DNA from: a virus
Taxonomy: Duplodnaviria; Heunggongvirae; Uroviricota; Caudoviricetes
Virus record (IMG/VR): IMGVR_UViG_2609460053_000008
DNA length: 43,294 nt
Reading direction: 5' to 3' (one strand)
Part shown: positions 2,604 through 41,505 of the stretch, piece after piece
Numbering within the stretch: the first letter of the stretch is position 1
How the letters are laid out: every line of letters begins with the position of its first letter
Notes under the pieces: model-generated
What the model was told of the DNA's origin: nothing
Seen by the model: only the letters and a program-made list of their open reading frames with translations
The model's database searches: none
Translations under genes and position numbers: made by a program

Positions 2604-3656
2604 TCAGGAGCCGATATATTCTGGTTTCATATCTGTCAGTGTCGTTTTATACGCCTCATATAATTCTCCCAGATGTGGTCGTGCAGCATTCAGCGTATTT
2701 TCCAGAGCAATAAATTTTTGTTCTGCTTCTGGATCACCTGATGAAGGCAGGTCATTTATCATCTTCTCAATACGGGCAATAGCATTGAGACGGTGATGAC
2801 GCTGAACCACTTTTCCTTTAAGTTCTGTGTAGAGAGCGCCAAGTGTATTTTTATGATCTTCCACTTCCTGGCGAAGTGCTGTTGTTTCTCCGGTGCTTTG
2901 TGCCTGCTCAATACGTTCACGGAAAGCACTGATCCAGTTTTCCCCGGCATCCTGCTCAATAATTGTTGTTTCACGTTCCGCACGGCAGGCGGATGTGTTT
3001 TTATGTTCCTGAACCGGATTAATGATTTTTTCCTGTGGTTCGTCCAGTTCGTCCCGGGTGTACACTCCAAGAATCACTTCAGGGCAATAAAGGCGCGCCC
3101 AGCGTTTCAGAGCCAGATAGGCAAGCTGCTGGCGAGGATCATCGGCCCATAACGTTGAGTTACGTGTTCTGGCCTGCGCCAGAAGTAACTCCAGTACGCG
3201 TGGCTTGCTCTCTCCGCGTAGTGTTGCCTGGACGCGAACACCGATCCCGTTTTCATCGGCCAGCTTCCAGCCAGGTACACGATATTCTTTCCCCTTGTCG
3301 TTCTTCCTGATTTCAAATTTCCCGATAATTTTTTCCCACGGCCCGAACCAGTCATATTCAATACGCCCGGTTAGCGGCCCACGAGTACTGATTACGGCAT
3401 TAACCAGTTGCGCTTCATATCCGAGCACACCATTCACAACGAAAGTTTTCTGAGCTACTGCGTAAGGGTTCATTTGCCACTGCATCGCCTGCATGGTGAT
3501 GGCCATGCAGTCTGATGGATTTCCCCGGAGGTGTTCCGGTACAGTAGCCATGCCGGAAGCCATTACCTGGGAAAATGTCTGAATTGCAGCCAGGGACTGA
3601 GGGCTGAAAACCGCAACATTAGAGTTAATATTTTCTTGTTGAGTTAATTCGTTCAT
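2604..3656 (-). CDS. Putative single-strand annealing recombinase (RecT-like position, downstream of recE)
   Basis: 350 aa; start sits 12 nt after recE stop in the same operon; family assigned by position only, sequence not confidently matched. Confidence 0.5.
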   Translation of the reverse strand: MNELTQQENINSNVAVFSPQSLAAIQTFSQVMASGMATVPEHLRGNPSDCMAITMQAMQWQMNPYAVAQKTFVVNGVLGYEAQLVNAVISTRGPLTGRIEYDWFGPWEKIIGKFEIRKNDKGKEYRVPGWKLADENGIGVRVQATLRGESKPRVLELLLAQARTRNSTLWADDPRQQLAYLALKRWARLYCPEVILGVYTRDELDEPQEKIINPVQEHKNTSACRAERETTIIEQDAGENWISAFRERIEQAQSTGETTALRQEVEDHKNTLGALYTELKGKVVQRHHRLNAIARIEKMINDLPSSGDPEAEQKFIALENTLNAARPHLGELYEAYKTTLTDMKPEYIGS

Positions 3657-14258: not shown

Positions 14259-14460
14259 ATACAGCGAACGCCATTGGTTTAGTTGGATATTTACTGTGCC
14301 GGACAAAAACGGTTTGCGGGGAAATCTTAGTTAAGTAGAATGACTGCGGGTGCTTGAGGCTATCTGTCTCAGGCATGAACACCAAAAGGCAGATAGAGAA
14401 AAGCCCCAGTTAACATTACGCGTCCTGCAAGACGCTTAACATTAATCTGAGGCCATATCT

Positions 14461-14520
14461 ATGCGACACATAGAGATTAGCCTCTTACGGACCGAAAGGT
14501 CAAGGAGAAGCAGGCTATGA
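14461..14520 (+). CDS. mok: mok-like leader ORF overlapping the hok start
   Basis: 19-codon ORF MRHIEISLLRTERSRRSRL ending in TGA that overlaps hok ATG (CTATGA). Confidence 0.4.
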   Translation: MRHIEISLLRTERSRRSRL

Positions 14521-14672
14521 AGCAGCAAAAGGCGATGTTAATCGCCCTGATCGTCATCTGTTTAACCGTCATAGTGACGGCACTGGTAACGAGGAAAGAC
14601 CTCTGCGAGGTACGAATCCGAACCGGCCAGACGGAGGTCGCTGTCTTCACAGCTTACGAACCTGAGGAGTAA
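14517..14672 (+). CDS. hok: Hok/Gef family type I toxin (51 aa)
   Basis: MKQQKAMLIALIVICLTVIVTALVTRKDLCEVRIRTGQTEVAVFTAYEPEE; hallmark TRK(D/S)LCE motif; matches recalled HokD/RelF. Confidence 0.8.
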   Translation: MKQQKAMLIALIVICLTVIVTALVTRKDLCEVRIRTGQTEVAVFTAYEPEE

Positions 14673-14742
14673 GAGACCTGGCGGGGGAGAAATCCCTCGC
14701 CACCTCTGATGTGTCAGGCATCCTCAACGCACCCGTACTTAA

Positions 14743-14761
14743 CCCGCTTCGGCGGGTTTTT
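14743..14761 (+). terminator. Rho-independent terminator after hok
   Basis: CCCGC-TTCG-GCGGG hairpin followed by TTTTT. Confidence 0.65.
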
Positions 14762-14946
14762 GTTGCGTGCTGAATGTGCAGGGTGAAAAATAACCATATA
14801 TTTGATTATATACACAACAAAAAATAAAAGTCATTGTACCTGCACATTAAACAATCAAATATACGGCGTGAAATAAATATTTTTCAGATTAATATTTTTG
14901 TCTCTATGTGGATATAACCGTTTGTACTTATAAACCTGGAGGCATC

Positions 14947-15159
14947 GTGGAAAAAATAAAAAAACTATTTAGTAGCAAATACGCAGTCATACGTCGTGAT
15001 GACTTGTCAGTTATAGTCGAAATGGATTACTTCCCTGAAACCACAAAATCAATGATGTATCGTAATGGTCGAAAGGCAATTTTTTTACCGATGAGGGTAA
15101 GTGACATTATGGGAAATGATAAACTGCTGGATGAATTGCGAGTCAGAGCATCCTGTTAG
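14947..15159 (+). CDS. Hypothetical protein (70 aa, GTG start)
   Basis: GGAGG 5 nt upstream of GTG; preceded by AT-rich promoter-like region. Confidence 0.4.
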   Translation: MEKIKKLFSSKYAVIRRDDLSVIVEMDYFPETTKSMMYRNGRKAIFLPMRVSDIMGNDKLLDELRVRASC

Positions 15160-15230
15160 TATTGGCATTAATTCTGGTATACTACGTAACGGGCTGAACA
15201 CCCATTCTACTGCGCCAGCGGAGAACTACG

Positions 15231-15830
15231 ATGGCGCATATACAACTGGTCAAACAAACCTCTTCCGGATTACTTCTCCCGGCGACGCCGGAGAGTTGCG
15301 ATTTTTTGCATCAAATCAAAATAGGTGAGTGGATACACGCAGACTTTAAGCGTGTGCGTAACTACGCATTCCACAGGCGTTTTTTCAAACTCCTGCAGCT
15401 CGGATTCGATTACTGGACTCCGGTCGGTGGGGCGATCACGCCTCGCGAACGAGAACTGGTGTCTGGTTTCGTTGATTTCCTATGCGAATCAGTAGGTCGG
15501 GAACATACGCCAGCCCTGAGTGATGCTGCAGAGCAATACCTTAATACCGTTGCGACGCGTAGAACCCGTGATACGGCATTGCTCAAGTCATTTGATGCCT
15601 TCCGTGAATGGGTAACCATTCAGGCCGGATTTTACACCGAGCATTTTTATCCGGACGGTAGCCGTGGGCGTCGGGCAAAATCCATCGCGTTTGCGAATAT
15701 GGACGAAACCGAGTTTCAGCAGGTTTATAAAGCCGTACTGAATGTGCTGTGGAACTGGATCCTGTTCCGTAAATTTTCCTCTCCGGAGGAAGTCGAAAAT
15801 GTGGCCGCGCAGCTGCTGGAGTTTGCGTAA
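15231..15830 (+). CDS. Nin-region protein (DUF1367/YbcN-like)
   Basis: 199 aa; position upstream of YbcO-like and Q genes; family recalled, not verified. Confidence 0.45.
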   Translation: MAHIQLVKQTSSGLLLPATPESCDFLHQIKIGEWIHADFKRVRNYAFHRRFFKLLQLGFDYWTPVGGAITPRERELVSGFVDFLCESVGREHTPALSDAAEQYLNTVATRRTRDTALLKSFDAFREWVTIQAGFYTEHFYPDGSRGRRAKSIAFANMDETEFQQVYKAVLNVLWNWILFRKFSSPEEVENVAAQLLEFA

Positions 15831-16120
15831 TGGTGGATTTACGTAAAGCGGCGCGGGGGCAGATGTGCACCGTCAGAATTCCTGGCTACTGCAACCACAA
15901 TCCCGAAACTTCTGTGCTGGCGCATTACAGGCTGGCGGGGACGTGCGGAACAGCGACAAAACCACACGATATGCAGGCAGCGATTGCCTGTAGCTCATGC
16001 CACGATTTAATCGACGGGCGGGTAAAAACCAGCGATTACACCAAAGAAGAATTACGCCTGATGCATGCAGAAGGTGTTTTTCGCACACAAGAAATCTGGA
16101 GAAAGGAAGGTTATTTATGA
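15830..16120 (+). CDS. YbcO-like putative nuclease (DUF1364), Cys-rich
   Basis: MVDLRKAARGQMCTVRIPGYCNHNPETSVLAHYR resembles DLP12 YbcO; ATGG start overlap with upstream stop. Confidence 0.6.
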   Translation: MVDLRKAARGQMCTVRIPGYCNHNPETSVLAHYRLAGTCGTATKPHDMQAAIACSSCHDLIDGRVKTSDYTKEELRLMHAEGVFRTQEIWRKEGYL

Positions 16121-16671
16121 TTTACCCAACAAATACAGGCAAAAGCGGGGAACACCTTCGTCTCACCACGCTGGAAAGTGTCTGGATTCAGGGAAAACTG
16201 CGCATGTGGGGGCGCTGGTCGTATATTGGCGGCGGTAAGACGGGAAATATGTTTAACCAGTTGCTGACCTCTAAAAAGCTGACAAAAACGGCAATTAACG
16301 AGGCGCTCCGGAGGATGAAAAAAGCAGGTCTGGACAAACCTGAACTTGAGGCTTTTTTGCGGGATATGATTAACGGCAAGCAAAAGAGCTGGCTGGCACA
16401 TTGTACTGATTCAGAGGCATTAATAATCGACAGGGTTATTGGAGAAGTGTTGGCAGAACACCCAGGATTGATTTGTATCCTCCGGCAACGATATGAAGGG
16501 AGGGGGATGACTAAGCGAAAAATGGCTGAATTGCTGAATGATTCACACCCTGAGTGGTGTTACGCCACGTGCCGTAATCGCATAGATGCGTGGTTGAAAA
16601 TGGCAGAGTTTATGCTCTATCTGCCGATGCGTGATGCATTCTCTTCCGGGGATTTAAAAACCGTCTGTTGA
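16117..16671 (+). CDS. Late-gene antitermination protein Q-like
   Basis: 184 aa; ATGA overlap with the upstream gene; immediately followed by a PR'-like promoter and a short transcript terminator; upstream of lysis genes. Confidence 0.55.
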   Translation: MIYPTNTGKSGEHLRLTTLESVWIQGKLRMWGRWSYIGGGKTGNMFNQLLTSKKLTKTAINEALRRMKKAGLDKPELEAFLRDMINGKQKSWLAHCTDSEALIIDRVIGEVLAEHPGLICILRQRYEGRGMTKRKMAELLNDSHPEWCYATCRNRIDAWLKMAEFMLYLPMRDAFSSGDLKTVC

Positions 16672-16697
16672 CTCAATCTGTTATCCGGGGCTATATT
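16668..16697 (+). promoter_or_regulatory. PR'-like late promoter (TTGACT-N18-TATATT)
   Basis: Near-consensus -35/-10 overlapping the Q stop codon. Confidence 0.55.
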
Positions 16698-16758
16698 CCT
16701 CACGCGCCAGCAAAATCTGGCGTCGGGATTAGCACCCCGGATGTTTACGGAGCGATAT

Positions 16759-16780
16759 GAGACGCGCCCGCGTCTTTTTT
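16759..16780 (+). terminator. tR'-like terminator about 75 nt downstream of the late promoter
   Basis: GACGC-GCCC-GCGTC hairpin followed by TTTTTT. Confidence 0.6.
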
Positions 16781-16944
16781 CATATCGTTTGCACAGTCAC
16801 ATTCGCGATTTATGGCGGGCTGTGTGGGGGAGCCGAAAGGCTCGCCGGTTTCCGTACCCGGTAGTGCTAACCCCGCACAGTTCGCCACCACGATGATTAG
16901 CACCTGACGGTGGCGATAATGTCCAAATGTACGGAGTTATCGTT

Positions 16945-17526
16945 ATGGCTACTCAGATTTCTGTCGAAACTCTTTCCCCAATTACACACAACCAAATTCC
17001 CGTTATCACTACCGAGTTACTGGCACAGCTTTACTGTACCGAGATCAACAACATCAAAGTAAATTACACCCGTAATTCCGAGCGTTTTGTTGAGGGTAAA
17101 CACTTTTTCAAGGTTGTTGGTGATGAGTTGAAAAATTTGCGGGTTACTTTAAGTAACTCACAAAATTTGCAACCATCTTTAAGAGGGTTACAAATTTCCC
17201 CGAAAGCCCGCTCCCTCATCCTCTGGACAGAACGCGGAGCAGCCCGTCATGCCAAAATGCTCGAAACCGATCAGGCGTGGGATGTGTTCGAAAAACTGGA
17301 AGACTGCTATTTCAGACAAAAGGATCCGTCAGCGCCAGTTTCATGCCAGAAAAGTTACGACACGCGAGTTCTCTGTTATCAGCAAGGCGGTGTCACTGTT
17401 TCCACAATTCAGTTGCGGGATGATGATATTGTTATTTCCCTTGAGTCATGGCTGGAACTGGCGAGAGCCAATGGTTGGTTTGTTGTTCGCAGAGATAAAC
17501 TGGTGGAAAGGCTGATGCAGCTTTAA
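16945..17526 (+). CDS. ORF6N/KilA-N-like domain protein, putative antirepressor-like
   Basis: N-terminal ITTELLAQLYCTEINNIKVNYTRNSERFVEGKHFF resembles the ORF6N domain; sits in the Q-to-lysis slot. Confidence 0.4.
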   Translation: MATQISVETLSPITHNQIPVITTELLAQLYCTEINNIKVNYTRNSERFVEGKHFFKVVGDELKNLRVTLSNSQNLQPSLRGLQISPKARSLILWTERGAARHAKMLETDQAWDVFEKLEDCYFRQKDPSAPVSCQKSYDTRVLCYQQGGVTVSTIQLRDDDIVISLESWLELARANGWFVVRRDKLVERLMQL

Positions 17527-31024: not shown

Positions 31025-31212
31025 CGTTTAACAGCCTGCCGGACGGGCTGTCCTACCTTCTCAATCCGGTTGACGCCGGGTTAATTCCCTATACAGCACT
31101 TAAAGATGGCTCTGTCGATTTGTATGACATTGCTCTCTTGAATGACCATCTGGCGGTAAAAGCGGATAACCAGCGGCGCATTGAGAAATGGAGAGAGGAT
31201 AATGAACGCTGA
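30572..31212 (+). other. Predicted -1 frameshift fusion product of the tail assembly chaperone
   Basis: -1 frame is open from the slippery site to TGA at 31210-31212, overlapping the tape measure start. Confidence 0.5.
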
Positions 31213-33187
31213 AACTATTAAAGATTTCCTCGTCTCGCTTGGCTTCAGTGTGGATGATGCAGGAGCGAAAAAGTTCGGTTCTGTCCTCGCCGGTACAACT
31301 GCAAATGTCATCAAAATGGGGCTGGCTGTTGAAGGAGCTGCGCTGTCCGTGGTGGCCTTCACGGCTAAGATCGCCTCCGGCCTGGATAATCTTTACTGGG
31401 CGTCACAGCGCACCGGTGCGACGGTCCAGGGAATTCAGTCTATTGGCTATGCGGTTTCGCAGGTTGGCGGCAGCGTGGACGCTGCGCGATCTTCTCTGGA
31501 AAGCCTCTCCCGGTTTATTCGTAACAATCCCGGGGCGGAAGGCTTCCTGAATCGCCTTGGTGTACAGACCCGTGACGCCAGCGGCAACATGCGTGACATG
31601 GCCGCTATTTTTACAGGTGTAGGCCAGAAGCTCAGCGGTATGCCGTATTACCGGGCTAACCAGTATGCGCAGATGCTGGGCATTGACGAAAATACCCTGA
31701 TGGCCATGCGTCGTGGTGTGGGGCAGTTCAGCGCTCAGTATTCAGAAATGGTGAAAGCGATCGGATTTAATGCCGATCAGGCTGCCTTATCGTCAAACCG
31801 GTTTATGACCTCGCTGAAATCGCTCGGTGAAATGGCCGGGATGGCGCGGGACAAAATCGGATCGAATCTTGCGGACGGACTGGCGGGGCAGATTGATAAC
31901 CTGCGCAAAAAGATAATTGAAAATTTTCCCAAAATTGAAGTCACCATCACAAAGGTCATAAAGGGGATCCTCTGGCTGGGTGAGATAGTCGGGCGGGTAG
32001 CATTTCGGATAGTCGATGGTGTCGGAGATATCATCGAGTGGTGGGGGAAACTGGATGCCGAAACGAAAACCCTGATAGAGGTTATCGGCGGTCTGGTTGT
32101 CGCCATGCGGATACTTAACTCTACTTTCTGGATGTCACCTATAGGGCTGATTACCGGTCTGATCGTGGCTCTCGGTCTCTTGTGGGAAGACTACAAAACA
32201 TGGAAAGAAGGCGGTAACAGTCTTATCGACTGGGAAAAATGGCAACCGGCAATAGATAAAGCGAAGGATGCGATCACCTGGCTTCGTGATCACCTTCTGG
32301 AACTAAAAGATGGTGTTGGCGGCTGGCAAAATGCACTGGAAATCCTCGGTACATTCATCGCGGGTGTCTGGGTATCCAAGGTTCTGGGGGCTTTCGGGAA
32401 AATATCTGGTTTGCCGGTACCGCCATGGTTAAAAGGCTGGATGGCTTATGCTGCTTATTTGTACTCCGATCGCGAAAATATTGGTGCCAGTGCGAAATCA
32501 TCCTGGGATTACACGAAACAAAATATTGGAGATTCATTGCGCTGGCTTGGCATTGATACCGATTTTGGTCGTAATCCTCATACCGTAAAAGGCGCAAATA
32601 TTCAGTCAGATATTCCAGGTGCTGAGCCGGAACAACATGCACAGGCTACGAAGCGAGGAGAACGGAATAACAATCCGGGAAACCTTAATTTTGCTGGTCA
32701 GGCGGGGGCTTCTCTTGAACGACCGGGCGGGCGATTTGCCAGATTTGAAACTGCTTTTGATGGATTACGGGCTCTTGCTCGTCAGTTAATGCTGTACGCC
32801 GGACGGGGAATAAACAGTGTGGAGAAAATTATCTCTACCTGGGCACCTGCGTCTGATAATAACAACACAACCGCGTATATCAGGGCTGTATCGCAACGAC
32901 TGGGAGTGGATCCCCGGGCTGCCCTGAATATGAGCGATCCGCAAACCATGTCAGCATTGATGAGCAGCATTATCCAGCATGAGAATGGAAGAAATATCTA
33001 TTCTCGAGAGCTGATTAATAAGGCTGCCGTGGCGGGAATTAGTGGCAAAGTGACAGAGGTTAACCAGCAAAATACCTACCACATTTACGGTGGCGGAGAT
33101 CCGCACGCTGTCGGTAATGAGGTTGCACGTCGGCAACAGTCTGCAAATGCTCAGGTCATGCGAAGTAATCAGGTGAGGGTGGGTTAG
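31202..33187 (+). CDS. Tail tape measure protein
   Basis: 662 aa with hydrophobic central segments; GGAGAGAGGA RBS; follows chaperone pair. Confidence 0.8.
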   Translation: MNAETIKDFLVSLGFSVDDAGAKKFGSVLAGTTANVIKMGLAVEGAALSVVAFTAKIASGLDNLYWASQRTGATVQGIQSIGYAVSQVGGSVDAARSSLESLSRFIRNNPGAEGFLNRLGVQTRDASGNMRDMAAIFTGVGQKLSGMPYYRANQYAQMLGIDENTLMAMRRGVGQFSAQYSEMVKAIGFNADQAALSSNRFMTSLKSLGEMAGMARDKIGSNLADGLAGQIDNLRKKIIENFPKIEVTITKVIKGILWLGEIVGRVAFRIVDGVGDIIEWWGKLDAETKTLIEVIGGLVVAMRILNSTFWMSPIGLITGLIVALGLLWEDYKTWKEGGNSLIDWEKWQPAIDKAKDAITWLRDHLLELKDGVGGWQNALEILGTFIAGVWVSKVLGAFGKISGLPVPPWLKGWMAYAAYLYSDRENIGASAKSSWDYTKQNIGDSLRWLGIDTDFGRNPHTVKGANIQSDIPGAEPEQHAQATKRGERNNNPGNLNFAGQAGASLERPGGRFARFETAFDGLRALARQLMLYAGRGINSVEKIISTWAPASDNNNTTAYIRAVSQRLGVDPRAALNMSDPQTMSALMSSIIQHENGRNIYSRELINKAAVAGISGKVTEVNQQNTYHIYGGGDPHAVGNEVARRQQSANAQVMRSNQVRVG

Positions 33188-34078: not shown

Positions 34079-35143
34079 ATGTCACAGAACTGGATGAGAC
34101 ATTTCGAGCTGCAGCTTGTGGACGGGAACGGTCAGGGAATTGAGCTAAGTGATTTTAAAGTCACCTTTACGATCGACTGGTTCAACATCAGCAGCGCGTC
34201 CCGGGTAGGGACTATCAAAATTTATAACCTCTCGGCAGATACTGTGAACCGAATTACCGGGCAGGAGTTTTCGAAAGTGCGTCTGATTGCGGGTTACGAC
34301 GGTATCGCGCCGGAGGTGTCGGCAAGCGACGTCGGGACAGTGCGGGAAGTTGACGCGGCGGACGTGGGCCAGAGTGATGGTCGCAACTACGGACTGATTT
34401 TCAGCGGTGAAATTCGCTACTCGGTCACAGGAAAAGACAGTCTGGTTGATTCCTACGTCCTGATTCAGGCAGCCGATACTGATCTGGCTTTTGCCACCAG
34501 TATAACCTCACAGACGCTGGCTGCCGGTTACACGGTCGCTGATGTAAACCGTGCGCTGATGAAAGACTTCGAAGCCAAAGGCGCGACCGAAGGCCTGACG
34601 CCTGAAATGCCTGCTACTGTATTCCCCCGGGGGCGGGTACTCTTTGGCATGACGCGGCATCTAATGGATAACGTAGCCGGGCAATGTGGCGCAACATGGC
34701 AATTCGTGGATGGTCAGCGCCAGATGGTGGCGAATAACGAATATGTTCATGAAGCGATTGTGCTCAACAGCGCTACCGGGCTTATTGGCATGCCGCAGCA
34801 GACTATCGGTAACGGCGTAAACGTCCGCGCGCTTATTAATCCGAACATCCGGGTTAATGGACTCATTCAGCTGGATCAGGCTTCAGTGTATCGTACCGCG
34901 TTGTCGAACAACGATATTGCGATGGCTGGTGGTCAGATCACCGACCAGAACACGGATGGAAATATCACGCTAAGCGGCACCACATCGCAGCCTGCCAGCA
35001 TCGCAACGGATGGCGTTTATATTGTGCGCGGGATTATGTACACTGGCGACACAAGGGGCCAGGCGTGGTACATGGATATGATGTGCGAAGCGCGCGGTGC
35101 GCAGGATATGCCATCCAGCACTGCTTTGCAGAGAGGATTATAG
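34079..35143 (+). CDS. Baseplate hub-like protein
   Basis: 354 aa following tape measure and small tail proteins. Confidence 0.45.
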   Translation: MSQNWMRHFELQLVDGNGQGIELSDFKVTFTIDWFNISSASRVGTIKIYNLSADTVNRITGQEFSKVRLIAGYDGIAPEVSASDVGTVREVDAADVGQSDGRNYGLIFSGEIRYSVTGKDSLVDSYVLIQAADTDLAFATSITSQTLAAGYTVADVNRALMKDFEAKGATEGLTPEMPATVFPRGRVLFGMTRHLMDNVAGQCGATWQFVDGQRQMVANNEYVHEAIVLNSATGLIGMPQQTIGNGVNVRALINPNIRVNGLIQLDQASVYRTALSNNDIAMAGGQITDQNTDGNITLSGTTSQPASIATDGVYIVRGIMYTGDTRGQAWYMDMMCEARGAQDMPSSTALQRGL

Positions 35144-35145
35144 AA

Positions 35146-35493
35146 ATGAAACGATGGATATTTTCATTGCTGGCGTTAGTGTCTGTTGGTGTAAGTGCAA
35201 ACACCATAACGATGCAATGCGGCAACTTTCGTATGGATGCGATCCCTGACTCATTATTTAAAATCAATGGCGAAACAGTAACATCCCAAAAAGTAAAAAT
35301 GTTGGGTAAAGACGGTACAGGCATGCAGATCAAAATGGAGCTGATGCCTGCCAAAGATGGCAACAATTATGGGTTCGAGTATATCCATCGACCGGGCACT
35401 AAAACGCGTTTCCTGAACGTCCAGTTGTTGCAGAACAGCATGGACGCGCCGAAAATTATCGGCTCCTTCCCGTGTAAAAAAGTGCCTGGTTGA
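35146..35493 (+). CDS. Secreted small protein (115 aa, signal peptide), accessory gene inside baseplate operon
   Basis: MKRWIFSLLALVSVGVSA signal peptide; lower GC than neighbours; followed by a hairpin. Confidence 0.55.
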   Translation: MKRWIFSLLALVSVGVSANTITMQCGNFRMDAIPDSLFKINGETVTSQKVKMLGKDGTGMQIKMELMPAKDGNNYGFEYIHRPGTKTRFLNVQLLQNSMDAPKIIGSFPCKKVPG

Positions 35494-35505
35494 AGGCAGG
35501 CACTT
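35480..35505. terminator. Bidirectional hairpin between convergent accessory genes
   Basis: AAGTGCCTG-N8-CAGGCACTT perfect 9-bp stem, A-run upstream and T-rich downstream. Confidence 0.55.
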
Positions 35506-35512
35506 TCTTTAA

Positions 35513-35878
35513 TCATTCCTTTTTGATTTCGATTTCTTCTTTAGCCTCACTGAATAGTTTAAAAAGTTCTTCATCGGTGAGGTTGCTTGCTTCGATTTTG
35601 TAGCCGCCTTTTTTGATGATTATCTTCTTACTGTGTTTTGCTCTAATCCATGCGGCCACAACAGCAGCGACGCTATAACAAACATCTTTGTTTTGGATAA
35701 ATTCAAAAATGTATCCGAGTATCACTGATGCGGGTGAGGATGCAGAAGGCGCTGAATCACCTACCCGCGCCCTTACACCCATTTTTCTGGCTTCAGCGGG
35801 GATGATCTCCTCGATATAAGGGATCAACTCTTCCCCTACGGATTTTGAGAGGCGTACTTTGAAAACTGATTTAGTCAT
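35513..35878 (-). CDS. Hypothetical protein (121 aa) on opposite strand inside tail operon
   Basis: ORF with hydrophobic core (VAAVVAAWIRA) and Lys/Glu-rich C-terminus. Confidence 0.5.
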   Translation of the reverse strand: MTKSVFKVRLSKSVGEELIPYIEEIIPAEARKMGVRARVGDSAPSASSPASVILGYIFEFIQNKDVCYSVAAVVAAWIRAKHSKKIIIKKGGYKIEASNLTDEELFKLFSEAKEEIEIKKE

Positions 35879-36059
35879 AACCTTTGGCGGCTCCTTCCGG
35901 AAAAGAATTAATGCTATATGGTCACTGGCTGGAACTTTGTTGGCTTTGGTCTTTTATGGCGAGGCAAAAATCGTTCTTAAAAACTATTGCCATCAAGATG
36001 AGCCGAAAAAGGTGTAACACCAACACCTGATAATTTATATCCTGATATTTGATCAGTAA

Positions 36060-36081
36060 CCCGCCACCCGGCGGGTTTTTT
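36060..36081 (+). terminator. Rho-independent terminator just upstream of the resumed baseplate genes
   Basis: CCCGCC-ACCC-GGCGGG hairpin followed by TTTTTT. Confidence 0.6.
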
Positions 36082-36100
36082 GCTTTCTGGAGCCTACAAA

Positions 36101-36853
36101 ATGGCAGTATCTGACCAGACCCGCAGCGGCGACCTTGCCGAAACATTCAAATCCGAGCGGGAAACCACAAAGAACCAGATCCGCGTCGCTTTGCCTGGCA
36201 TCGTTCAGTCATTCGATCCTGACGCGGTGACGGCGGTTGTGCAGCCTGCTATTCGTTCGGTTGAAACCGACAACGACGGCAACCGCGTAACCAAAAATTA
36301 CCCGCTGCTGGTGGATGTGCCGGTGGTATTTCCGCGCGGCGGCGGCTGCACGTTAACTTTCCCGGTAAAAGCCGGCGATGAATGCCTGGTGATTTTTGCC
36401 GATCGTTGTATTGATTTCTGGTGGCAGAACGGCGGGATACAGGAGCCTGTTGATGACAGAATGCATGATTTATCGGATGCGTTTTGTATTGTCGGTCCCC
36501 AGTCGCAGGCAAGGAAGATTAGCGGTATTAATACCAGTGCCACACAGTTGCGTAGTGATGACGGCAGCACCTATTTTGAGCTTAATCCTGATACCAGGAA
36601 AATTAAAATTGTCGCTCCGGGGGGCCTTGATGTGGTTGCCCCTCTGGCTGATTTTTCTGAGAAAGTAACCATTCATGGCCTGTTAACCTGGATGGGAGGC
36701 ATGGTGGGGTCTGTTGTTTCTGGTGTGGCTTCAAAAATCACTGGTGCTGTTGAGTTTTTGGGTAGCGTGAAGGCTAACGGCAAGCCAATCGATGATACGC
36801 ACACTCATGGTGGTGTTCAGCGCGGTGGAAGCAATACCGACGGAGTAAACTGA
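36101..36853 (+). CDS. Baseplate spike / V-like protein
   Basis: 250 aa, GGAG RBS, Gly-rich C-terminus; upstream of W/J/I-like genes. Confidence 0.5.
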   Translation: MAVSDQTRSGDLAETFKSERETTKNQIRVALPGIVQSFDPDAVTAVVQPAIRSVETDNDGNRVTKNYPLLVDVPVVFPRGGGCTLTFPVKAGDECLVIFADRCIDFWWQNGGIQEPVDDRMHDLSDAFCIVGPQSQARKISGINTSATQLRSDDGSTYFELNPDTRKIKIVAPGGLDVVAPLADFSEKVTIHGLLTWMGGMVGSVVSGVASKITGAVEFLGSVKANGKPIDDTHTHGGVQRGGSNTDGVN

Positions 36854-38405: not shown

Positions 38406-39082
38406 GCAAATACACCGAACTGATCACGAACTACCACGCCACCAAACCTAAATTTCTTGCACATGTTGATCTGATGACCCGGCCGCTTATTGATGTTGCG
38501 GCTGCCACCAGAGGGCTGATTACTGCATTTGATATTGACTCTGCGGTTGGTGTGCAACTTGACATTCTTGGATTGTGGATCGGACGTAGCCGTGTTGTCA
38601 GCCAGCCTATCTCAGGTGTCTATTTCAGCTGGGATACCGACGGGCTTGGATATGATCAGGGTGTATGGCAGGGGCCATACGATCCTGATTCCGGATACAT
38701 GTACCTCAGCGATGAAACTTATCGTGTCATCCTTAAAGCGAAGATTGCGATTAATAACTGGGACGGACGGAATGATTCGCTTCCGGCAATTCTTGACGCG
38801 GCGACAGCAGGATCCGGACTGCGAATGCAGATAGTCGATAACCAGGACATGACGATATCGGTCTGGCTCTTTCCTGATACTGATATTTCAGATGTATCGC
38901 GTGAGTTAATTGCTGCAATTAAACAGGGATATCTCACAGTAAAAGCCGCCGGGGTTTGGGCGGGTGGCATTGAAACACCTTCGGTGGAAACTCCATCGGA
39001 AGGTTCAAAATTTTTTGGTTTTGATATGGATAACGAATTCATCAGTGGTTTTGATGTAGGGGCATGGGGAGTATTACTCTGA
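38402..39082 (+). CDS. Baseplate/tail protein I-like
   Basis: 226 aa between J-like and tail fibre genes. Confidence 0.5.
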   Translation: MSKYTELITNYHATKPKFLAHVDLMTRPLIDVAAATRGLITAFDIDSAVGVQLDILGLWIGRSRVVSQPISGVYFSWDTDGLGYDQGVWQGPYDPDSGYMYLSDETYRVILKAKIAINNWDGRNDSLPAILDAATAGSGLRMQIVDNQDMTISVWLFPDTDISDVSRELIAAIKQGYLTVKAAGVWAGGIETPSVETPSEGSKFFGFDMDNEFISGFDVGAWGVLL

Positions 39083-41505
39083 TGGCGAAAAATGACTTTA
39101 AAGCGTTTGCAACTGATCGGAATGCCAATGTTATGTCGCAGGAGGAATGGGAAGCGTTGCCTGCGCTTTTATCCGGATTTACAGCAGGGAAAGCATCCAG
39201 TGCGCAGGTGAACAAAGCCATTCGACAGGCCAGCTTTATTGCTGCAGCTCTGGCCCAGTTTGTAAGTGACAAAACGCAACGGGATGTGCTTGATAATGGT
39301 GATCTGCCCGGTTTTGTTGAATTGCTTGGATCGGGGTTTGCTGTTGAATACCTGAGTCGCAAGAATCCGTTTGGTGATATCAAATCGGACGGCACGGTAG
39401 AACGCGCTCTTGAAAATCTGGGGTTACAGGATGTAAAAGCTGGTTCATTGAACAATCTGTACACTAACCATTCCCGTAGTGTCTTAATGGAATTGCCGTT
39501 ATTATTCCCGGACTACGATACGGTGCTGGCTGCTCAGTCTGGTGCGGAATATATGTATCCACAGGGATTTGTGGTGACAGGAGAAAAAATCTATCTGAGT
39601 TATACCGTTGAGCCAAAGCAGACACGGAACGTTATAGTTCAGTACACAACATCCGGCGAATATGAGGGATATTATTATGTCGATAATGGAGGTCGTGGCG
39701 TTGTCAGCGAAGGCCTTGTGGTGACAACGGATTACGGTGGATTACGTTTGTTCATGTCAGGAGAAAATGGATTACTGAAACAGTTTTCGCTTGATGGGGC
39801 AATTTCTGGTTCAGTATTGCCGTTAATTGATGAACATGATGTCGGTGTTTACAACCAGTTCAGCTATCGTAAAAACCGCTGGGTGGTTGAACAGTCAGCG
39901 CCGGAAGTGGGAGGCCTGATCACCCGCACAGTATTTGCGGTGTATGATTTTCAGTTTCGTCGGACAGGGACATTCACATTACCGTTGCATGATTCCGGAT
40001 ATATCACGGAAAGCACAGACAGCTATGCAAGACGCTTCACAAAACGTCAGGGAATTGCTGTGGGAGACGATTATATTGCCTGTTCTTATGGTGGCTATTT
40101 TAATACCGGGGCATCAGCCGGATTTAACCAGTTTCAGGGGGTTAAGGTCTTTTCTCCGGATGGAGTAAAGCAGCAGGAATCCATTCTTCATCCCCAAAAA
40201 ATGATAGATGTGCTTACCAGGCAGGGTTTTACACCTTCGCGCATTGAGAACGAAGGAATTTGTATTTCTGACGACGGCGGCAGTATATATTCGCTTTATA
40301 TCTTTCTGGAGCGTGGGTTACCACAGGCTTATCAGAAAGGAATTGTTCTGATGAAAGAGTTCAGTACTGGCAGAGATGCTATTGATTTTCGTCAGGCAGC
40401 CTGGTTGTACACGGGGTTTGATGTGTCTCATGCCAGTATTGGAACATTTCCCCGTAGTGCCCAGGGGTTGGTAAACCCGGTGTTGGGGACGGTATTCACA
40501 TCCCTGTCTGAAATTCTGGCATATATGCGTTCTGTGAGTCAGAAATGGTTTTGTCTGCATACAACCACGACACCGATTAAAGATCTGAGTGGAAATGACA
40601 TTCCTGCTGACAATTATGTGTTCATCAAGAATGCTAATAACCAGACATTCTATATAACGCAGGAGTCAGCTGAAGGTGGAATAAAATATAAAGCTGTCAC
40701 TACAGACAGCGGAGAATATGGTTTTCAGCGACAAAGAGAGGCAATCTGGTCCAATGTTATCACCATCGCACAAAAGAGCGATGGTGAGGATCAGTTTAAT
40801 CGTATTATCGCTGCCTCGAAAAGTGGTTCAGGTAAAAATCAGGATAAAATACTGGTAGTTGACCAACAGGCATCAGAGGGGAATAACACGCTGGTAATTG
40901 GCGGTGGTTCATCTGTGTTCAGGTCAGCGACAGTGATTGATTTTGCAACGAATCAGGATGCAAATGCCACAGGAGGAGAAAAGAGATGGCGCATAGATTC
41001 ATCAGGAAATCTCCGCCCTTATACAGATAATACGTATTCGATCGGTTATGCCTCATGGCGACCCGCACAGGTTTATTCAGCTACGGGAAGTATCAGTACA
41101 TCAGACCGGACTCATAAACAGGACGAAACAATTCTGTCGGATGCAGAAAAAAGGGTTGCCAGAAAGCTGCTCGGGTATATCTGTCGGTTCCGTTTCAGGG
41201 ATGCAGTGTCCAGCAAAGGGAACGCAGCCAGATGGCATGTAGGAGTGATTGCTCAGGACGTACAGAAGGTCTTCTCTGAGGAAGGGCTGGACGCTTTTGA
41301 TTACGGTATTTTGTGTCGTGATGAATATCCGGCGGAATATGAAGTGGTTTACGGGACTCGTATGGAGCTTGGTCCTGACGGACTCCTTACAATGGAAGAA
41401 TACGATACCGGAGAGCGCAAGCTGGTCAGGGAGGCTGGTGAAATAATGTCTGTAAGGAATGATGAGCTGCATTATTTCATGCTGGCATCGCTGTCTGGCC
41501 AGTGA
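39082..41505 (+). CDS. Tail fibre protein with C-terminal intramolecular chaperone (peptidase S74-like) domain
   Basis: 807 aa; C-terminal motif SDRTHKQDETI...RWHVGVIAQDVQKVF from 41101; start could be 39064. Confidence 0.85.
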   Translation: MAKNDFKAFATDRNANVMSQEEWEALPALLSGFTAGKASSAQVNKAIRQASFIAAALAQFVSDKTQRDVLDNGDLPGFVELLGSGFAVEYLSRKNPFGDIKSDGTVERALENLGLQDVKAGSLNNLYTNHSRSVLMELPLLFPDYDTVLAAQSGAEYMYPQGFVVTGEKIYLSYTVEPKQTRNVIVQYTTSGEYEGYYYVDNGGRGVVSEGLVVTTDYGGLRLFMSGENGLLKQFSLDGAISGSVLPLIDEHDVGVYNQFSYRKNRWVVEQSAPEVGGLITRTVFAVYDFQFRRTGTFTLPLHDSGYITESTDSYARRFTKRQGIAVGDDYIACSYGGYFNTGASAGFNQFQGVKVFSPDGVKQQESILHPQKMIDVLTRQGFTPSRIENEGICISDDGGSIYSLYIFLERGLPQAYQKGIVLMKEFSTGRDAIDFRQAAWLYTGFDVSHASIGTFPRSAQGLVNPVLGTVFTSLSEILAYMRSVSQKWFCLHTTTTPIKDLSGNDIPADNYVFIKNANNQTFYITQESAEGGIKYKAVTTDSGEYGFQRQREAIWSNVITIAQKSDGEDQFNRIIAASKSGSGKNQDKILVVDQQASEGNNTLVIGGGSSVFRSATVIDFATNQDANATGGEKRWRIDSSGNLRPYTDNTYSIGYASWRPAQVYSATGSISTSDRTHKQDETILSDAEKRVARKLLGYICRFRFRDAVSSKGNAARWHVGVIAQDVQKVFSEEGLDAFDYGILCRDEYPAEYEVVYGTRMELGPDGLLTMEEYDTGERKLVREAGEIMSVRNDELHYFMLASLSGQ

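What the first reader, a model, noticed from the sequence alone, without database searches (positions are those of the whole stretch)
35146..36081. Accessory cassette interrupting the baseplate operon: secreted protein plus opposite-strand gene with their own terminators
Between the hub-like gene and the spike-like gene sits a lower-GC insert. It holds a 115-aa protein with a clear signal peptide (MKRWIFSLLALVSVGVSA) and two Cys residues, a perfect 9-bp bidirectional hairpin (35480-35505), and a convergent 121-aa gene on the minus strand. A promoter-like AT-rich stretch with palindromes (GGTGTAACACC; TGATAATTTATATCCTGATATTTGATCA) and a terminator at 36060-36081 precede the resumed tail genes. 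Cargo inside a tail operon is unusual and may encode exclusion or host-interaction factors.
Basis: partly seen in the sequence, partly recalled or inferred. Interest (0 to 1): 0.6.

Follow-up and report, generated by a model that had tools for sequence, protein, structure and literature searches.

The report
Defence cargo slot in prophage baseplate
Between the hub and spike genes of an E. coli prophage tail there is a swap-in cargo slot; here it holds a rare relative of a pore-forming cell-suicide protein plus a hidden 52-codon partner gene, whereas the secreted protein beside it is a regular companion of the hub gene, not cargo.

Summary
All described sequence features are present. The window is a SEN34-like prophage (lambda-type early genes, contractile tail) of E. 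coli FDAARGOS_1289. The "insert" is three separate things.

1. ORF1 (35146-35493) is a Sec-exported, disulfide-bonded small beta-barrel. It is not cargo: it follows the hub gene in 74/74 ORF1-anchored loci and about 40/47 hub-anchored loci, and is sometimes the only gene before the spike.

2. The variable part lies between ORF1 and a conserved terminator. About 125 related loci hold 44 unrelated cargo families there, including PD-Lambda-1, an Mrr-like nuclease and a YafO toxin.

3. The terminator at 36058-36083 is a core feature. It is kept in 38/38 distinct relatives, with compensatory stem changes.

The cargo here occurs in 3 of 5,426 complete E. coli genomes. ORF2 is a remote homologue of EACC1, a latent pore-forming defence effector, but without EACC1's usual caspase partner. 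It overlaps head-to-head with an unannotated 52-aa gene, ORF3 (35859-36017). ORF3 is conserved in all 24 further loci with close ORF2 relatives checked, and alongside four of six more distant relatives, some in other phage contexts.

Most likely this is a lysogen-expressed abortive-infection module. The trigger and ORF3's role are unknown. It is a new variant of known kinds.

The parts
34079..35143 (+). Baseplate hub gene. This is the left conserved flank of the slot.
   Evidence: phrog_196 E 3.8e-88 and PF22759 E 1e-4. Present in 306 of 5,426 complete E. coli genomes.
35146..35493 (+). ORF1, 115 aa. It has a Sec signal peptide (residues 1-18, cleavage after VSA). The mature 97-aa part is predicted to be a periplasmic beta-barrel with an invariant Cys25/Cys110 pair. 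It is a hub-linked, lineage-conserved gene, not cargo.
   Evidence: phrog_3443 E 1.5e-51. 386 protein clusters in Enterobacterales. Alignment A2. AF2 pLDDT 84. Synteny.
35476..35509 (.). Bidirectional intrinsic-terminator-like hairpin between the convergent ORF1 and ORF2. Its left arm is made of the last ORF1 codons.
   Evidence: Analogous but non-homologous hairpins follow ORF2 in most cassettes.
35513..35878 (-). ORF2, 121 aa, an EACC1-like protein and candidate latent pore-forming effector. It has an N-terminal domain (1-41), a disordered loop starting at the conserved Asp41-Ser42, and a conserved small-residue-rich hydrophobic helix (65-81).
35859..36017 (+). ORF3, an unannotated 52-aa gene. 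It has a TTG start and an AGAGG Shine-Dalgarno sequence 5 nt upstream. It overlaps the ORF2 start head-to-head by 20 nt and has one hydrophobic helix (residues 17-33).
   Evidence: Open in the window, in the 5 diverged cassettes and in all 24 further ORF2 loci. This frame is open in 16/16 distinct sequences, against 4/16 or fewer for other frames. Codon-position differences are 93:31:190 and pN/pS is 0.12-0.44. ORF3-like ORFs also accompany far ORF2 relatives in other contexts.
36039..36059 (-). Conserved 21-nt motif, TTACTGATCAAATATCAGGAT on the minus strand (TACTG-N9-CAGGAT, contains GATC). It abuts the terminator. It is a candidate promoter or operator for leftward cargo transcription.
   Evidence: Unique in the window. 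Present at the same place in every minus-strand cassette checked in this slot, whatever the cargo; 4 mismatches to the 21-mer were allowed. Function is inferred only.
36058..36083 (+). Conserved intrinsic terminator (8-bp G+C-rich stem, tetraloop, T-run) about 20 nt upstream of the spike start codon. This is the right boundary of the slot.
   Evidence: In 38 distinct relatives, 97.9% of cells are paired and 5 of 8 pairs show compensatory changes; slid controls give 19-60%.
36101..36853 (+). Gp138/gpV-type membrane-puncturing spike gene. This is the right conserved flank.
   Evidence: PF18352 E 3e-44 and Apex motif. PGAP annotation.

Best explanation
**Shown**
- The window is a lambdoid myovirus prophage of the SEN34 type.
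- Its hub-spike junction has a fixed frame: hub, then a tightly linked ORF1, then a variable slot, then a conserved intrinsic terminator, then spike.
- ORF1 is a conserved exported beta-barrel protein made from the late tail transcript. Its function is unknown.
- The slot is a recombination hot spot. It carries unrelated cargo in different relatives, including known anti-phage genes.
- In this window the slot carries a rare two-gene cassette.
  - ORF2 is a remote homologue of the EACC1 domain, encoded antisense to the tail genes.
  - ORF3 is an unannotated 52-aa protein encoded head-to-head and overlapping ORF2's start.

**Inferred**
- ORF2 is expressed in the lysogen from a leftward promoter near the conserved TACTG-N9-CAGGAT motif. 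It terminates at the bidirectional hairpin.
- Like characterised EACC1, ORF2 is a soluble autoinhibited monomer.
- When a superinfecting phage is sensed, the N-terminal domain is removed, probably by cleavage after the conserved Asp41 by a protease supplied in trans. The C-terminal fragment then oligomerises into membrane pores and aborts the infection.
- ORF3 is its obligatory partner, acting as a membrane-side regulator or antidote. Its mRNA is fully antisense to the ORF2 leader, so the two are probably expressed reciprocally.
- On induction of the resident prophage, Q-type antiterminated late transcription reads through both terminators. It runs antisense over ORF2 and silences it, while transcribing ORF3.
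- In the lysogen, the conserved terminator keeps cargo transcription out of the spike and baseplate genes.
For: **Context**
- The window is 100% identical to the FDAARGOS_1289 chromosome.
- PGAP shows a Rac-like early region, a DUF1133 protein at the Q position and no protease gene near the cassette. DUF1133 is called a Q antiterminator by HHpred in PMC8136144.
- SEN34 is described as lambdoid with myovirus morphology (PMC5261728).

**ORF1**
- It is linked to the hub in about 40/47 hub-anchored loci and 74/74 ORF1-anchored loci.
- It is the only gene in the gap in L037, L039, L041, L042, L045, L046 and L052.

**Hot spot**
- There are 44 cargo clusters in about 125 loci.
- Pfam finds Mrr_cat, T5orf172, ClpP, YafO and others.
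- PADLOC finds PD-Lambda-1 at E 2.8e-82 and PDC-S42 at E 1.7e-36.
- The cassette occurs in 3 of 5,426 E. coli genomes, against 306 for the hub.

**ORF2 and EACC1**
- The family HMM finds P0149 at E 3.9e-8.
- P0149 scores 36.9 bits on PF19953, above the gathering cut-off of 23.6.
- 26 of 31 extended-family members hit EACC1, including ORF2 itself at E 0.11.
- hhalign gives 97.8% probability and E 7e-13 over 100 columns.
- The AF2 model is alpha+beta, with a pLDDT<50 loop at 42-46.
- Asp is kept at position 41 in 24 of 31 members.
- EACC1 is described as a cleavage-activated pore former, cut at Asp49 into 5.7 + 7.1 kDa fragments, in bioRxiv 10.1101/2025.11.14.688446. ORF2 would give 4.6 + 8.9 kDa.

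**Orientation**
- ORF2 relatives are always oriented for lysogenic expression. They are antisense in tail or lysis modules, or sit directly behind cI.

**ORF3**
-.

**Terminators**
-.
Against: - ORF2 itself does not reach Pfam's EACC1 cut-off (12.9 against 23.6 bits).
- The defining partner of EACC1 systems, an adjacent caspase-like protease, is absent from the cassette and the prophage. The activating step therefore has no identified agent.
- No promoter matching the sigma-70 consensus was found for ORF2 or ORF3, and there are no expression data.
- PADLOC has no model that hits ORF2.
- The functional knowledge on EACC1 rests on one preprint and one distant representative.
- ORF3's hydrophobic segment is only borderline transmembrane (KD 1.71). 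It carries charged residues in distant relatives.
- Structure searches for ORF1 and ORF2 gave only generic fold matches.
Confidence: 0.5

Rival explanations
1. The ORF2/ORF3 pair is an addiction or toxin-antitoxin-like module rather than a phage-defence module. ORF3 is a small membrane toxin of the type I kind. The ORF2 mRNA leader (antisense to all of ORF3), the ORF2 protein, or both keep it silent. The benefit would be retention of the prophage or of the cassette.
For: - The two genes are divergent and overlap at their 5' ends, so each mRNA is antisense to the other's start region.
- ORF3 is short and basic (pI 9.6), has one hydrophobic helix and uses a weak TTG/GTG start in every close-family cassette.
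- This geometry resembles tisB/istR, shoB/ohsC and zor/orz (own knowledge).
- A YafO toxin also occupies the same slot elsewhere.
Against: - ORF2 is under clear protein-level conservation and is EACC1-like, so it is itself an effector-type protein rather than merely an RNA.
- ORF3's hydrophobicity is borderline and it has no family match.
- No toxicity data exist.
Confidence: 0.2
2. The locus serves superinfection exclusion or the phage's own entry and lysis biology. ORF1 (periplasm) and ORF3 (inner membrane) are both in late-operon orientation. They would block the envelope-crossing steps of incoming related phages or tune lysis, as T4 Sp/Imm or HK97 gp15 do. ORF2 would only regulate ORF3.
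For: - ORF1 and ORF3 are co-oriented with the late operon, and ORF1 is exported.
- The genes lie next to the membrane-puncturing device.
- 17 of 42 cargo families in this slot have transmembrane or signal-peptide-like segments.
- The tape-measure protein (TMP) of this phage ends in a lysozyme-fold domain.
- HK97 gp15 is a moron that gives exclusion (reference list of PMC10884400).
Against: - ORF1 is not co-distributed with the TMP lysozyme-type domain, and its alleles do not track hub, spike or TMP alleles.
- Late-only expression would not protect a lysogen.
- The EACC1 homology of ORF2 is left unexplained.
Confidence: 0.15
3. One reading: the whole of 35146-36081 is one foreign accessory cassette. 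It would comprise a secreted protein, an opposite-strand gene, and their own promoter and terminators, all interrupting the baseplate operon.
For: - GC is lower over the whole stretch (ORF1 44.5%, ORF2 42.3%).
- Three relatives lack both genes, with a hub-spike gap of 86-97 nt (L043, L049, L053).
Against: - ORF1 is present without any other cargo in seven relatives. It follows the hub in 74/74 ORF1-anchored loci and pairs with dozens of different downstream cargos.
- ORF2/ORF3 pairs with ORF1 alleles of 29-100% identity, or with none.
- The right-hand terminator is present in cargo-free relatives.
Confidence: 0.05
4. ORF1 is a structural or assembly component of the baseplate, so the refutation condition of the first reader holds for it. 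Its N-terminal hydrophobic stretch would not be a cleaved signal peptide.
For: - Linkage to the hub gene is strict and the spacing suggests translational coupling.
- The mature part is highly conserved (67% mean column identity).
Against: - The N-terminus has the classical n/h/c layout with an A-x-A site. Its sequence varies freely while hydrophobicity is kept, as in cleaved signal peptides.
- The invariant Cys pair fits a periplasmic disulfide.
- Three relatives with the same hub and spike lack the gene, and three more keep only a 3' remnant.
Confidence: 0.08

Closest known systems
EACC1-caspase two-gene conflict system (Kaur et al. 2020, PMC7159879; Evans et al. 2025, bioRxiv 10.1101/2025.11.14.688446)
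   Same: - ORF2 is a roughly 13-kDa non-enzymatic alpha+beta protein.
- It has the conserved small-residue-rich hydrophobic helix.
- Family-level homology to PF19953 is supported.
- A flexible loop starting with a conserved Asp separates an N-terminal domain from the C-terminal part, as at the Asp49 cleavage site of the studied EACC1.
   Different: - There is no adjacent caspase-like protease or sensor gene.
- The host range differs: enterobacterial prophages rather than mostly multicellular actinobacteria and cyanobacteria.
- The gene sits antisense inside phage late modules, or behind cI.
- It has a conserved head-to-head overlapping small gene (ORF3), which neither paper mentions where searched.
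- ORF2 itself scores below Pfam's cut-off.
Phage morons in late operons (lambda bor and lom; HK97 gp15; Pseudomonas JBD26 Tab)
   Same: - Extra genes sit between conserved late genes.
- GC is lower.
- They have their own terminator.
- They are present in some relatives only.
- They are often expressed from the prophage and protect the host (PMC10884400; lambda examples from own knowledge).
   Different: - Here the insertion point is one fixed slot with at least 44 alternative cargos.
- The slot is framed by a conserved secreted-protein gene and a conserved terminator.
- The cargo is a two-gene overlapping pair.
Defence hot spots of P2-like phages and P4-like satellites (Rousset et al. 2022; cited, content from own knowledge)
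   Same: A fixed position between conserved phage genes carries highly diverse, mostly defence-related cargo that is exchanged between relatives.
   Different: - The phage lineage differs (SEN34-like lambdoid myoviruses).
- The position differs (hub-spike junction inside the tail operon).
- To my knowledge, and in the papers searched, this hot spot has not been described.
Lambda RexAB abortive infection (own knowledge)
   Same: - It is a lysogen-expressed pair that kills by membrane permeabilisation on superinfection.
- A bona fide EACC1 relative (P0149) with its ORF3-like partner occupies the exact rexAB position behind cI in lambdoid contigs.
   Different: - There is no sequence relationship.
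- RexB is a 4-TM channel protein and RexA a 279-aa sensor.
- The ORF2/ORF3 genes overlap divergently.
Type I toxin-antitoxin loci with divergent 5' overlap (tisB/istR-1, shoB/ohsC, zor/orz; own knowledge)
   Same: A small hydrophobic protein gene has a start region covered by a divergently transcribed RNA.
   Different: - The opposing transcript here encodes a conserved protein (ORF2).
- No sRNA is known.
- There is no family match for ORF3.
Periplasmic lysozyme inhibitors PliC/MliC/PhiA and T4 Spackle (compared with ORF1)
   Same: - They are small periplasmic proteins with a signal peptide.
- Spackle is a phage protein that blocks a tail-borne lysozyme (own knowledge).
   Different: - ORF1 has no sequence or Pfam match.
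- ORF1 is not co-distributed with the TMP lysozyme-fold domain.
- Spackle is all-helical.

Membership tests
EACC1 domain (Pfam PF19953) | The protein scores above the Pfam gathering cut-off (23.6 bits). | tested here: not met
   Window ORF2 scores 12.9 bits, E 0.11, residues 66-105 against profile 55-99. It gave no hit at E<=0.1.
EACC1 domain (Pfam PF19953) | Profile-level homology to members that do pass the cut-off. | tested here: met
   - The ORF2-family HMM finds P0149 at E 3.9e-8.
- P0149 scores 36.9 bits on PF19953.
- hhalign of the ORF2 family against P0149 gives 97.8% probability and E 7e-13 over 100 columns.
- 26 of 31 extended-family members hit EACC1, and no other family is consistent.
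EACC1 domain (Pfam PF19953) | A single strongly conserved hydrophobic helix with a patch of small residues, flanked by short alpha+beta elements (Kaur et al. 2020). | tested here: met
   - The helix at 64-80 (DVCYSVAAVVAAWIRAK) is the most conserved block.
- The AF2 model shows beta-alpha-beta, then the loop, then beta-alpha-beta-beta-alpha-beta.
EACC1-caspase two-gene system | An adjacent 3' gene encoding a caspase-like (or other) peptidase fused to sensor or effector domains. | tested here: not met
   - The 3' neighbour of ORF2 is the convergent ORF1, and the 5' neighbour is ORF3.
- No peptidase is annotated in the cassette or elsewhere in the prophage apart from head morphogenesis genes.
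- The same holds in relatives.
EACC1-caspase two-gene system | Proteolytic removal of the N-terminal domain releases a pore-forming C-terminal fragment. | not testable with these tools
   Support is indirect only: Asp41 is conserved in 24 of 31 members at the start of a low-confidence loop.
Phage moron | Present in some closely related phages and absent or replaced in others, between conserved genes. | tested here: met
   - ORF2/ORF3 occurs in 3 E. coli genomes against 306 with the hub.
- It occurs in 5 of 80 ORF1-anchored viral contigs.
- The feature is not met for ORF1.
Phage moron | Own terminator. | tested here: met
   A bidirectional hairpin follows ORF2. Analogous hairpins occur in most cassettes.
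Phage moron | Own promoter active in the lysogen. | tested here: inconclusive
   No sigma-70 consensus was found. A conserved motif next to the terminator is a candidate. There are no expression data.
Intrinsic (rho-independent) terminator, element at 36058-36083 | A G+C-rich hairpin directly followed by a U-run, with the structure conserved. | tested here: met
   In 38 sequences, 97.9% of cells are paired and 5 of 8 pairs have compensatory changes, well above slid and shuffled controls. Termination activity itself was not tested.
Type I toxin-antitoxin | A small membrane toxin plus a cis-encoded antisense RNA antitoxin. | not testable with these tools
   The geometry is compatible. There is no Rfam match above chance and no toxin family match for ORF3.
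MliC/PliC lysozyme inhibitors (for ORF1) | Sequence membership (PF09864 motifs). | tested here: not met
Sec-exported protein (for ORF1) | An N-terminal n/h/c signal peptide with an A-x-A cleavage site, kept across the family while its sequence drifts. | tested here: met
   Alignment of 45 homologues. No dedicated predictor such as SignalP was available.

The most novel reading that the evidence does not exclude
A protease-less, phage-borne branch of the EACC1 pore-forming effectors works with a hidden partner gene that overlaps it on the opposite strand. The module would sit antisense inside late operons, or behind cI, so that the direction of transcription across it acts as a self/non-self switch.

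- In the lysogen, ORF2 is made and stands guard. It would be activated by a protease or other product of an invading phage.
- When the resident prophage itself is induced, antiterminated late transcription silences ORF2 and produces ORF3. This spares the prophage from its own suicide effector.
Probability: 0.2. Interest if true: 0.8.

Novelty: new variant of a known kind. Interest (0 to 1): 0.62.

Why it matters
- **A new hot spot.** It defines a previously undescribed cargo and defence hot spot, with sharp conserved boundaries. The prophage family that carries it is present in about 5.6% of complete E. coli genomes and across Enterobacterales. This is a ready place to mine new defence genes, and most of the 44 cargo families have no annotation.
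- **EACC1 without its protease.** It places EACC1-type pore-forming effectors in enterobacterial prophages without their dedicated protease. This raises a testable question: what activates them? Candidates are a trans-acting or phage protease, or ORF3.
- **A hidden gene.** It exposes a conserved overlapping small gene that annotation pipelines miss. This is a concrete case for small-protein discovery and for antisense control inside phage late operons.
- **ORF1.** It flags ORF1 as a widespread exported protein strictly coupled to the baseplate hub gene, with unknown function.

Tried and rejected
1. **ORF1 as a specific inhibitor of the TMP lysozyme-fold domain.** The domain exists here (7q47, E 9e-14). 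However, it is mosaic and not co-distributed with ORF1 or its alleles. Rejected as a specific pairing.
2. **Fold searches.**
   - Foldseek against viral models was uninformative.
   - The afdb50 library was unavailable.
   - HMM against PDB found nothing for either protein.
3. **Direct family scans of ORF1 and ORF2.** Pfam, NCBIfam and PADLOC gave nothing useful. The EACC1 link appeared only through distant family members.
4. **Rfam on 34900-36300.** Only chance-level hits were found.
5. **Sigma-70 promoter scans.** These included a scan for positions conserved across cassettes. Nothing was convincing.
6. **LexA box.** The motif is CTG-N9-CAG, not CTG-N10-CAG, so this was rejected. It also does not fit the IHF consensus.
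7. **GGTGTAACACC as a conserved structure.** It spans the ORF3 stop codon and is not palindromic in relatives.
8. **ORF3 as a paralogue of the ORF2 core.** hhalign probability is 0.5%. Rejected.
9. **The 39-aa frame annotated in Hafnia phage yong1 (gp69), and other frames of the intergenic region.** They are not conserved.
10. **The FP4 slot-2 secreted protein as an ORF1 paralogue.** hhalign gives 29% probability and E 6e-4, which is inconclusive.
11. **Literature.** No paper found describes this slot, ORF1, or prophage EACC1 without a protease.
Full report
**Observation**

- ORF1 is at 35146-35493 (+). It encodes 115 aa, starts MKRWIFSLLALVSVGVSA and has two Cys.
- ORF2 is at 35513-35878 (-), 121 aa, convergent with ORF1.
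- The hairpin at 35480-35505 has a perfect 9-bp stem. It extends to 13 bp with one mismatch and has an A-run on one side and a T-run on the other. It folds at about -17 kcal/mol on either strand, with z-scores of -3.9 and -5.0.
- An 8-bp G+C-rich hairpin at 36058-36077 is followed by a T-run.
- GC is 43.2% across 35146-36081, against 53.9% for the hub and 52.2% for the spike.
- The neighbours are a baseplate hub (phrog_196, E 4e-88) and a Gp138/gpV-type spike (PF18352, E 3e-44). A Dit-like protein, a plug protein and a tape-measure protein (TMP) lie upstream; gpW- and gpJ-like genes lie downstream.
- The "promoter-like" reading could not be verified. No sigma-70 consensus pair exists on either strand.

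**Context**

The window is 100% identical to the chromosome of E. coli FDAARGOS_1289. It is a prophage between yebY and pphA/yebW.
- The early region is Rac/lambda-like (recET, kil, cI/cro-type regulators).
- A DUF1133 protein sits at the Q position, followed by a lambda-type lysis cassette and a contractile tail.
- DUF1133 is called a Q antiterminator by HHpred in PMC8136144.
- The named phage relatives found include Salmonella phage SEN34 (Brunovirus), Escherichia phages vB_EcoM-689R2 and related isolates, Yersinia phage YP3 and Hafnia phage yong1. Of these, the vB_EcoM isolates are the closest by DNA identity (about 94%).
- SEN34 was described as lambdoid in genome and myovirus in shape (PMC5261728).
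- A single Q-antiterminated late transcript would explain how tail genes downstream of internal terminators are expressed. This is inference.

**ORF1 is not cargo**

Hub-anchored search (45 loci from one genome per species, plus 9 annotated records):
- An ORF1 homologue lies directly after the hub in about 40 of 47 informative loci, down to hubs of 48% identity.
- In seven loci (gap 384-424 nt) it is the only gene between hub and spike.
- Three loci lack it, with the hub followed by the spike after 86-97 nt.
- Three keep only its last 17-23 codons.

ORF1-anchored search (80 IMG/VR contigs):
- The hub is directly upstream in 74 of 74 informative cases.
- The spike follows at 331-2,359 nt.

Properties of the gene and protein:
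- ORF1 starts 2 nt after the hub stop and has its own GAGG.
- The family (phrog_3443, E 1.5e-51; 386 clusters at 90% identity, all from Enterobacterales where a source gives an organism name) has a freely drifting n/h/c signal peptide. The mature part is strongly conserved, with an invariant Cys25/Cys110 pair.
- AlphaFold2 gives a confident 7-8-stranded small beta-barrel, with pLDDT above 90 over most of the mature part.

I tested the attractive idea that ORF1 inhibits the tail's own muralytic domain.
- The TMP of this phage does end in an Enc34-type lysozyme-fold domain (PDB 7q47, E 9e-14).
- That domain is mosaic among relatives. Neither its presence nor its allele tracks ORF1.

ORF1 is therefore a hub-linked exported protein of unknown function. 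Its alleles (29-100% identity) shuffle independently of hub and spike.

**The variable slot**

The stretch between the ORF1 stop and the terminator before the spike is a hot spot.
- About 125 loci hold 44 unrelated ORF clusters.
- Recognisable cargos include:
  - a TM-fused Mrr-type nuclease, a T5orf172 protein, a ClpP-like protease and a YafO toxin;
  - a secreted OB-fold protein, DUF2335 and a Mu-F-like protein.
- PADLOC identifies PD-Lambda-1 (E 2.8e-82), PDC-S42 (E 1.7e-36) and PDC-S02/ZorD-type nuclease domains.
- 17 of 42 families have a transmembrane or signal-peptide-like segment.
- Among complete E. coli genomes, the hub occurs in 306 of 5,426 and this ORF1 allele in 98. The ORF2 cassette occurs in 3, all identical.

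**The spike-proximal terminator is a core element**

- A hairpin (consensus AACCCGC-loop-GCGGGTT) plus a T-run lies about 20 nt before the spike start in 38 of 38 distinct relatives. These include cargo-free ones and those with only ORF1.
- Pairing is kept in 97.9% of cells, and 5 of 8 pairs show compensatory changes. Slid controls give 19-60%.
- It therefore marks the right boundary of the slot rather than belonging to this cassette.
- Its likely role is to stop transcripts from cargo promoters entering the baseplate genes in lysogens. This is inferred.

**ORF2**

ORF2 is rare and always oriented for lysogenic expression.
- There are 15 clusters among 5.8 billion proteins, and 29 representatives at E<=1e-3 among 1.84 billion.
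- In 27 loci with close relatives (52-100% identity), it lies antisense inside baseplate modules. In almost all of these it sits in this same slot, with a constant 222 nt from its ATG to the spike ATG.
- Exceptions: once it lies between spike and gpW, in two loci an extra gene separates it from the spike, and one locus is of unknown context.

Direct scans found no family. Distant members of its own family link it to Pfam PF19953, EACC1.
- P0149 scores 36.9 bits against a cut-off of 23.6.
- 26 of 31 members hit EACC1, including ORF2 at 12.9 bits.
- hhalign of the ORF2 family against P0149 gives 97.8% probability and E 7e-13 over 100 columns.

What is known about EACC1:
- Kaur et al. defined it as the constant small component of a two-gene conflict system, with a caspase-like protease fused to variable sensors. 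It has one conserved helix rich in small residues (PMC7159879).
- Evans et al. report that it is a soluble autoinhibited monomer. Its partner caspase cuts it at Asp49, and the C-terminal fragment then forms membrane pores (bioRxiv 10.1101/2025.11.14.688446).

ORF2 has matching parts.
- It has an N-terminal beta-alpha-beta domain.
- A low-confidence loop at 42-46 starts after Asp41, which is kept in 24 of 31 members.
- The conserved helix is DVCYSVAAVVAAWIRAK, followed by C-terminal strands.

The defining protease partner is absent here and in all phage-borne relatives examined. ORF2 is therefore an EACC1-domain homologue, but the cassette is not a member of the EACC1-caspase system.

**ORF3, a missed gene**

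A 52-codon ORF lies on the + strand at 35859-36017. It has a TTG start and an AGAGG 5 nt upstream, and it overlaps the ORF2 start head-to-head by 20 nt.
- It is open, with a TTG or GTG start at the same position and a length of 52-55 aa (68 aa in one), in the 5 diverged cassettes and in all 24 further ORF2 loci.
- In 16 distinct sequences this frame is open 16 times. Every other frame is open at most 4 times.
- Outside the overlap, substitutions fall 93:31:190 on codon positions 1, 2 and 3. pN/pS is 0.12-0.44, with synonymous sites near saturation.
- Only one cluster in the protein database corresponds to it. PGAP does not call it, and Hafnia phage yong1 annotates another frame.
- It has a basic N-terminus, a hydrophobic helix (17-33, KD 1.71) and a strand-like tail.

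An ORF3-like antisense ORF also accompanies much more distant ORF2 relatives in other contexts:
- next to a holin/endolysin pair (L084);
- in another tail slot (L089);
- in the hub-spike slot of a phage with an SLT-type TMP (L088);
- with the bona fide EACC1 P0149, directly behind the cI repressor of lambdoid contigs. This is the position of rexAB in lambda.

It was not seen on two short non-phage contigs. ORF3 shows no homology to ORF2 or to any Pfam or PHROG family.

**Control region**

- Between the ORF3 stop and the terminator lies a 21-nt motif. On the minus strand it reads TTACTGATCAAATATCAGGAT (TACTG-N9-CAGGAT, with a GATC).
- It is unique in the window.
- It is present at the same place in every minus-strand cassette checked in this slot, whatever the cargo: ORF2/ORF3, a ClpP-like gene, a 99-aa protein or a two-gene set. 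Four mismatches were allowed in that search.
- It is followed by an A/T-rich -10-like stretch. It is the best candidate for a portable leftward promoter or operator.
- It is not a LexA box (N9, not N10).
- If transcription starts there, the ORF2 leader is antisense to all of ORF3.
- The left arm of the hairpin that ends ORF2 is made of the last ORF1 codons. This explains why ORF1 3' remnants travel with the cassette.

**Mechanism**

Shown:
- the anatomy;
- the hot spot;
- the EACC1 homology at family level;
- the reality and co-inheritance of ORF3;
- the conserved terminator.

Inferred, at about 0.5 overall:
- The cassette is a lysogen-expressed abortive-infection module. ORF2 is a latent pore former, released by removal of its N-terminal domain after Asp41 by an agent supplied in trans.
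- ORF3 is its regulator, antidote or membrane partner.
- The antisense position in the late operon lets the prophage's own antiterminated late transcription switch ORF2 off during its own lytic growth.

Rivals:
- a type I-like addiction module with ORF3 as the toxin (0.2);
- a superinfection-exclusion or lysis role for the exported and membrane proteins (0.15);
- ORF1 as a structural protein (0.08);

**Comparison and novelty**

- Morons in late operons and defence hot spots in temperate phages are known (own knowledge). EACC1 effectors are known.
- The following appear new:
  - this particular hot spot with its two conserved boundary elements;
  - an EACC1 branch in enterobacterial prophages without a protease;
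  - its conserved overlapping antisense partner gene.
- Nothing on these was found in the searched literature.
- I rate it a new variant of known kinds, with interest 0.62.

Noticed in passing
window 35859-36017 (+): An unannotated 52-aa gene (ORF3) overlaps the ORF2 start head-to-head. PGAP does not call it. Hafnia phage yong1 gp69 (L003 3476-3595) is annotated in a different, non-conserved frame.
   Followed up: yes
window about 32650-33050 (C-terminus of the tape-measure gene 31181-33187): The tape-measure protein ends in an Enc34-type lysozyme-fold domain (PDB 7q47, E 9e-14). This domain is swapped for other C-terminal domains, such as SLT, in relatives.
   Followed up: partly
L081-L083 (lambdoid metagenome contigs), gene at L081 4001-4378: A bona fide EACC1 protein (P0149) with an ORF3-like antisense partner lies directly downstream of the cI repressor. 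This is the position that rexAB holds in lambda.
   Followed up: partly
L003 about 2987-3055; L061 and L066 3389-3457; L017 4956-5006; L028 5813-5884: In some relatives only the last 17-23 codons of ORF1 survive. In L003, L061 and L066 the remnant lies next to ORF2, where it forms the left arm of the ORF2 terminator hairpin and marks the left recombination joint of the cassette. In L017 and L028 the remnant lies beside other cargo.
   Followed up: partly
L011 5547-6706, L012, L017 and many IMG/VR loci (clusters 1 and 2): The most common cargo of the slot is a two-gene set: a 243-266-aa protein plus a 142-aa protein with an Rx6H (HEPN-like) motif. Neither has a Pfam or PADLOC hit. It is possibly an uncharacterised toxin or defence pair.
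   Followed up: no
L008 2004-2369 (E. coli FP4): The slot-2 protein of 121 aa has a signal peptide and a Cys near each end, like ORF1. hhalign to the ORF1 family gives 29% probability and E 6e-4. It may be a remote paralogue placed next to ORF1.
   Followed up: partly
L055 4001-4381 (Erwiniaceae bacterium): The ORF2/ORF3 cassette, with its hairpin and motif, also occurs in a different slot (after the spike plus a 128-aa gene, before gpW) of a more distant baseplate module.
   Followed up: partly
window 39064-41505 (+): A single 813-aa tail-fibre ORF with a C-terminal Peptidase_S74 chaperone domain is present in the window. In the RefSeq annotation it is split into a 'gp53-like' pseudogene and a 672-aa CDS.
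   Followed up: no
window about 14300-17500 (reverse of L059 25769-28778): The early-late junction carries hokD (a type I toxin), an ORF6N-domain gene and a DUF1133 protein at the Q-antiterminator position. The early region is Rac-like (recE, recT, kil, ralR).
   Followed up: no
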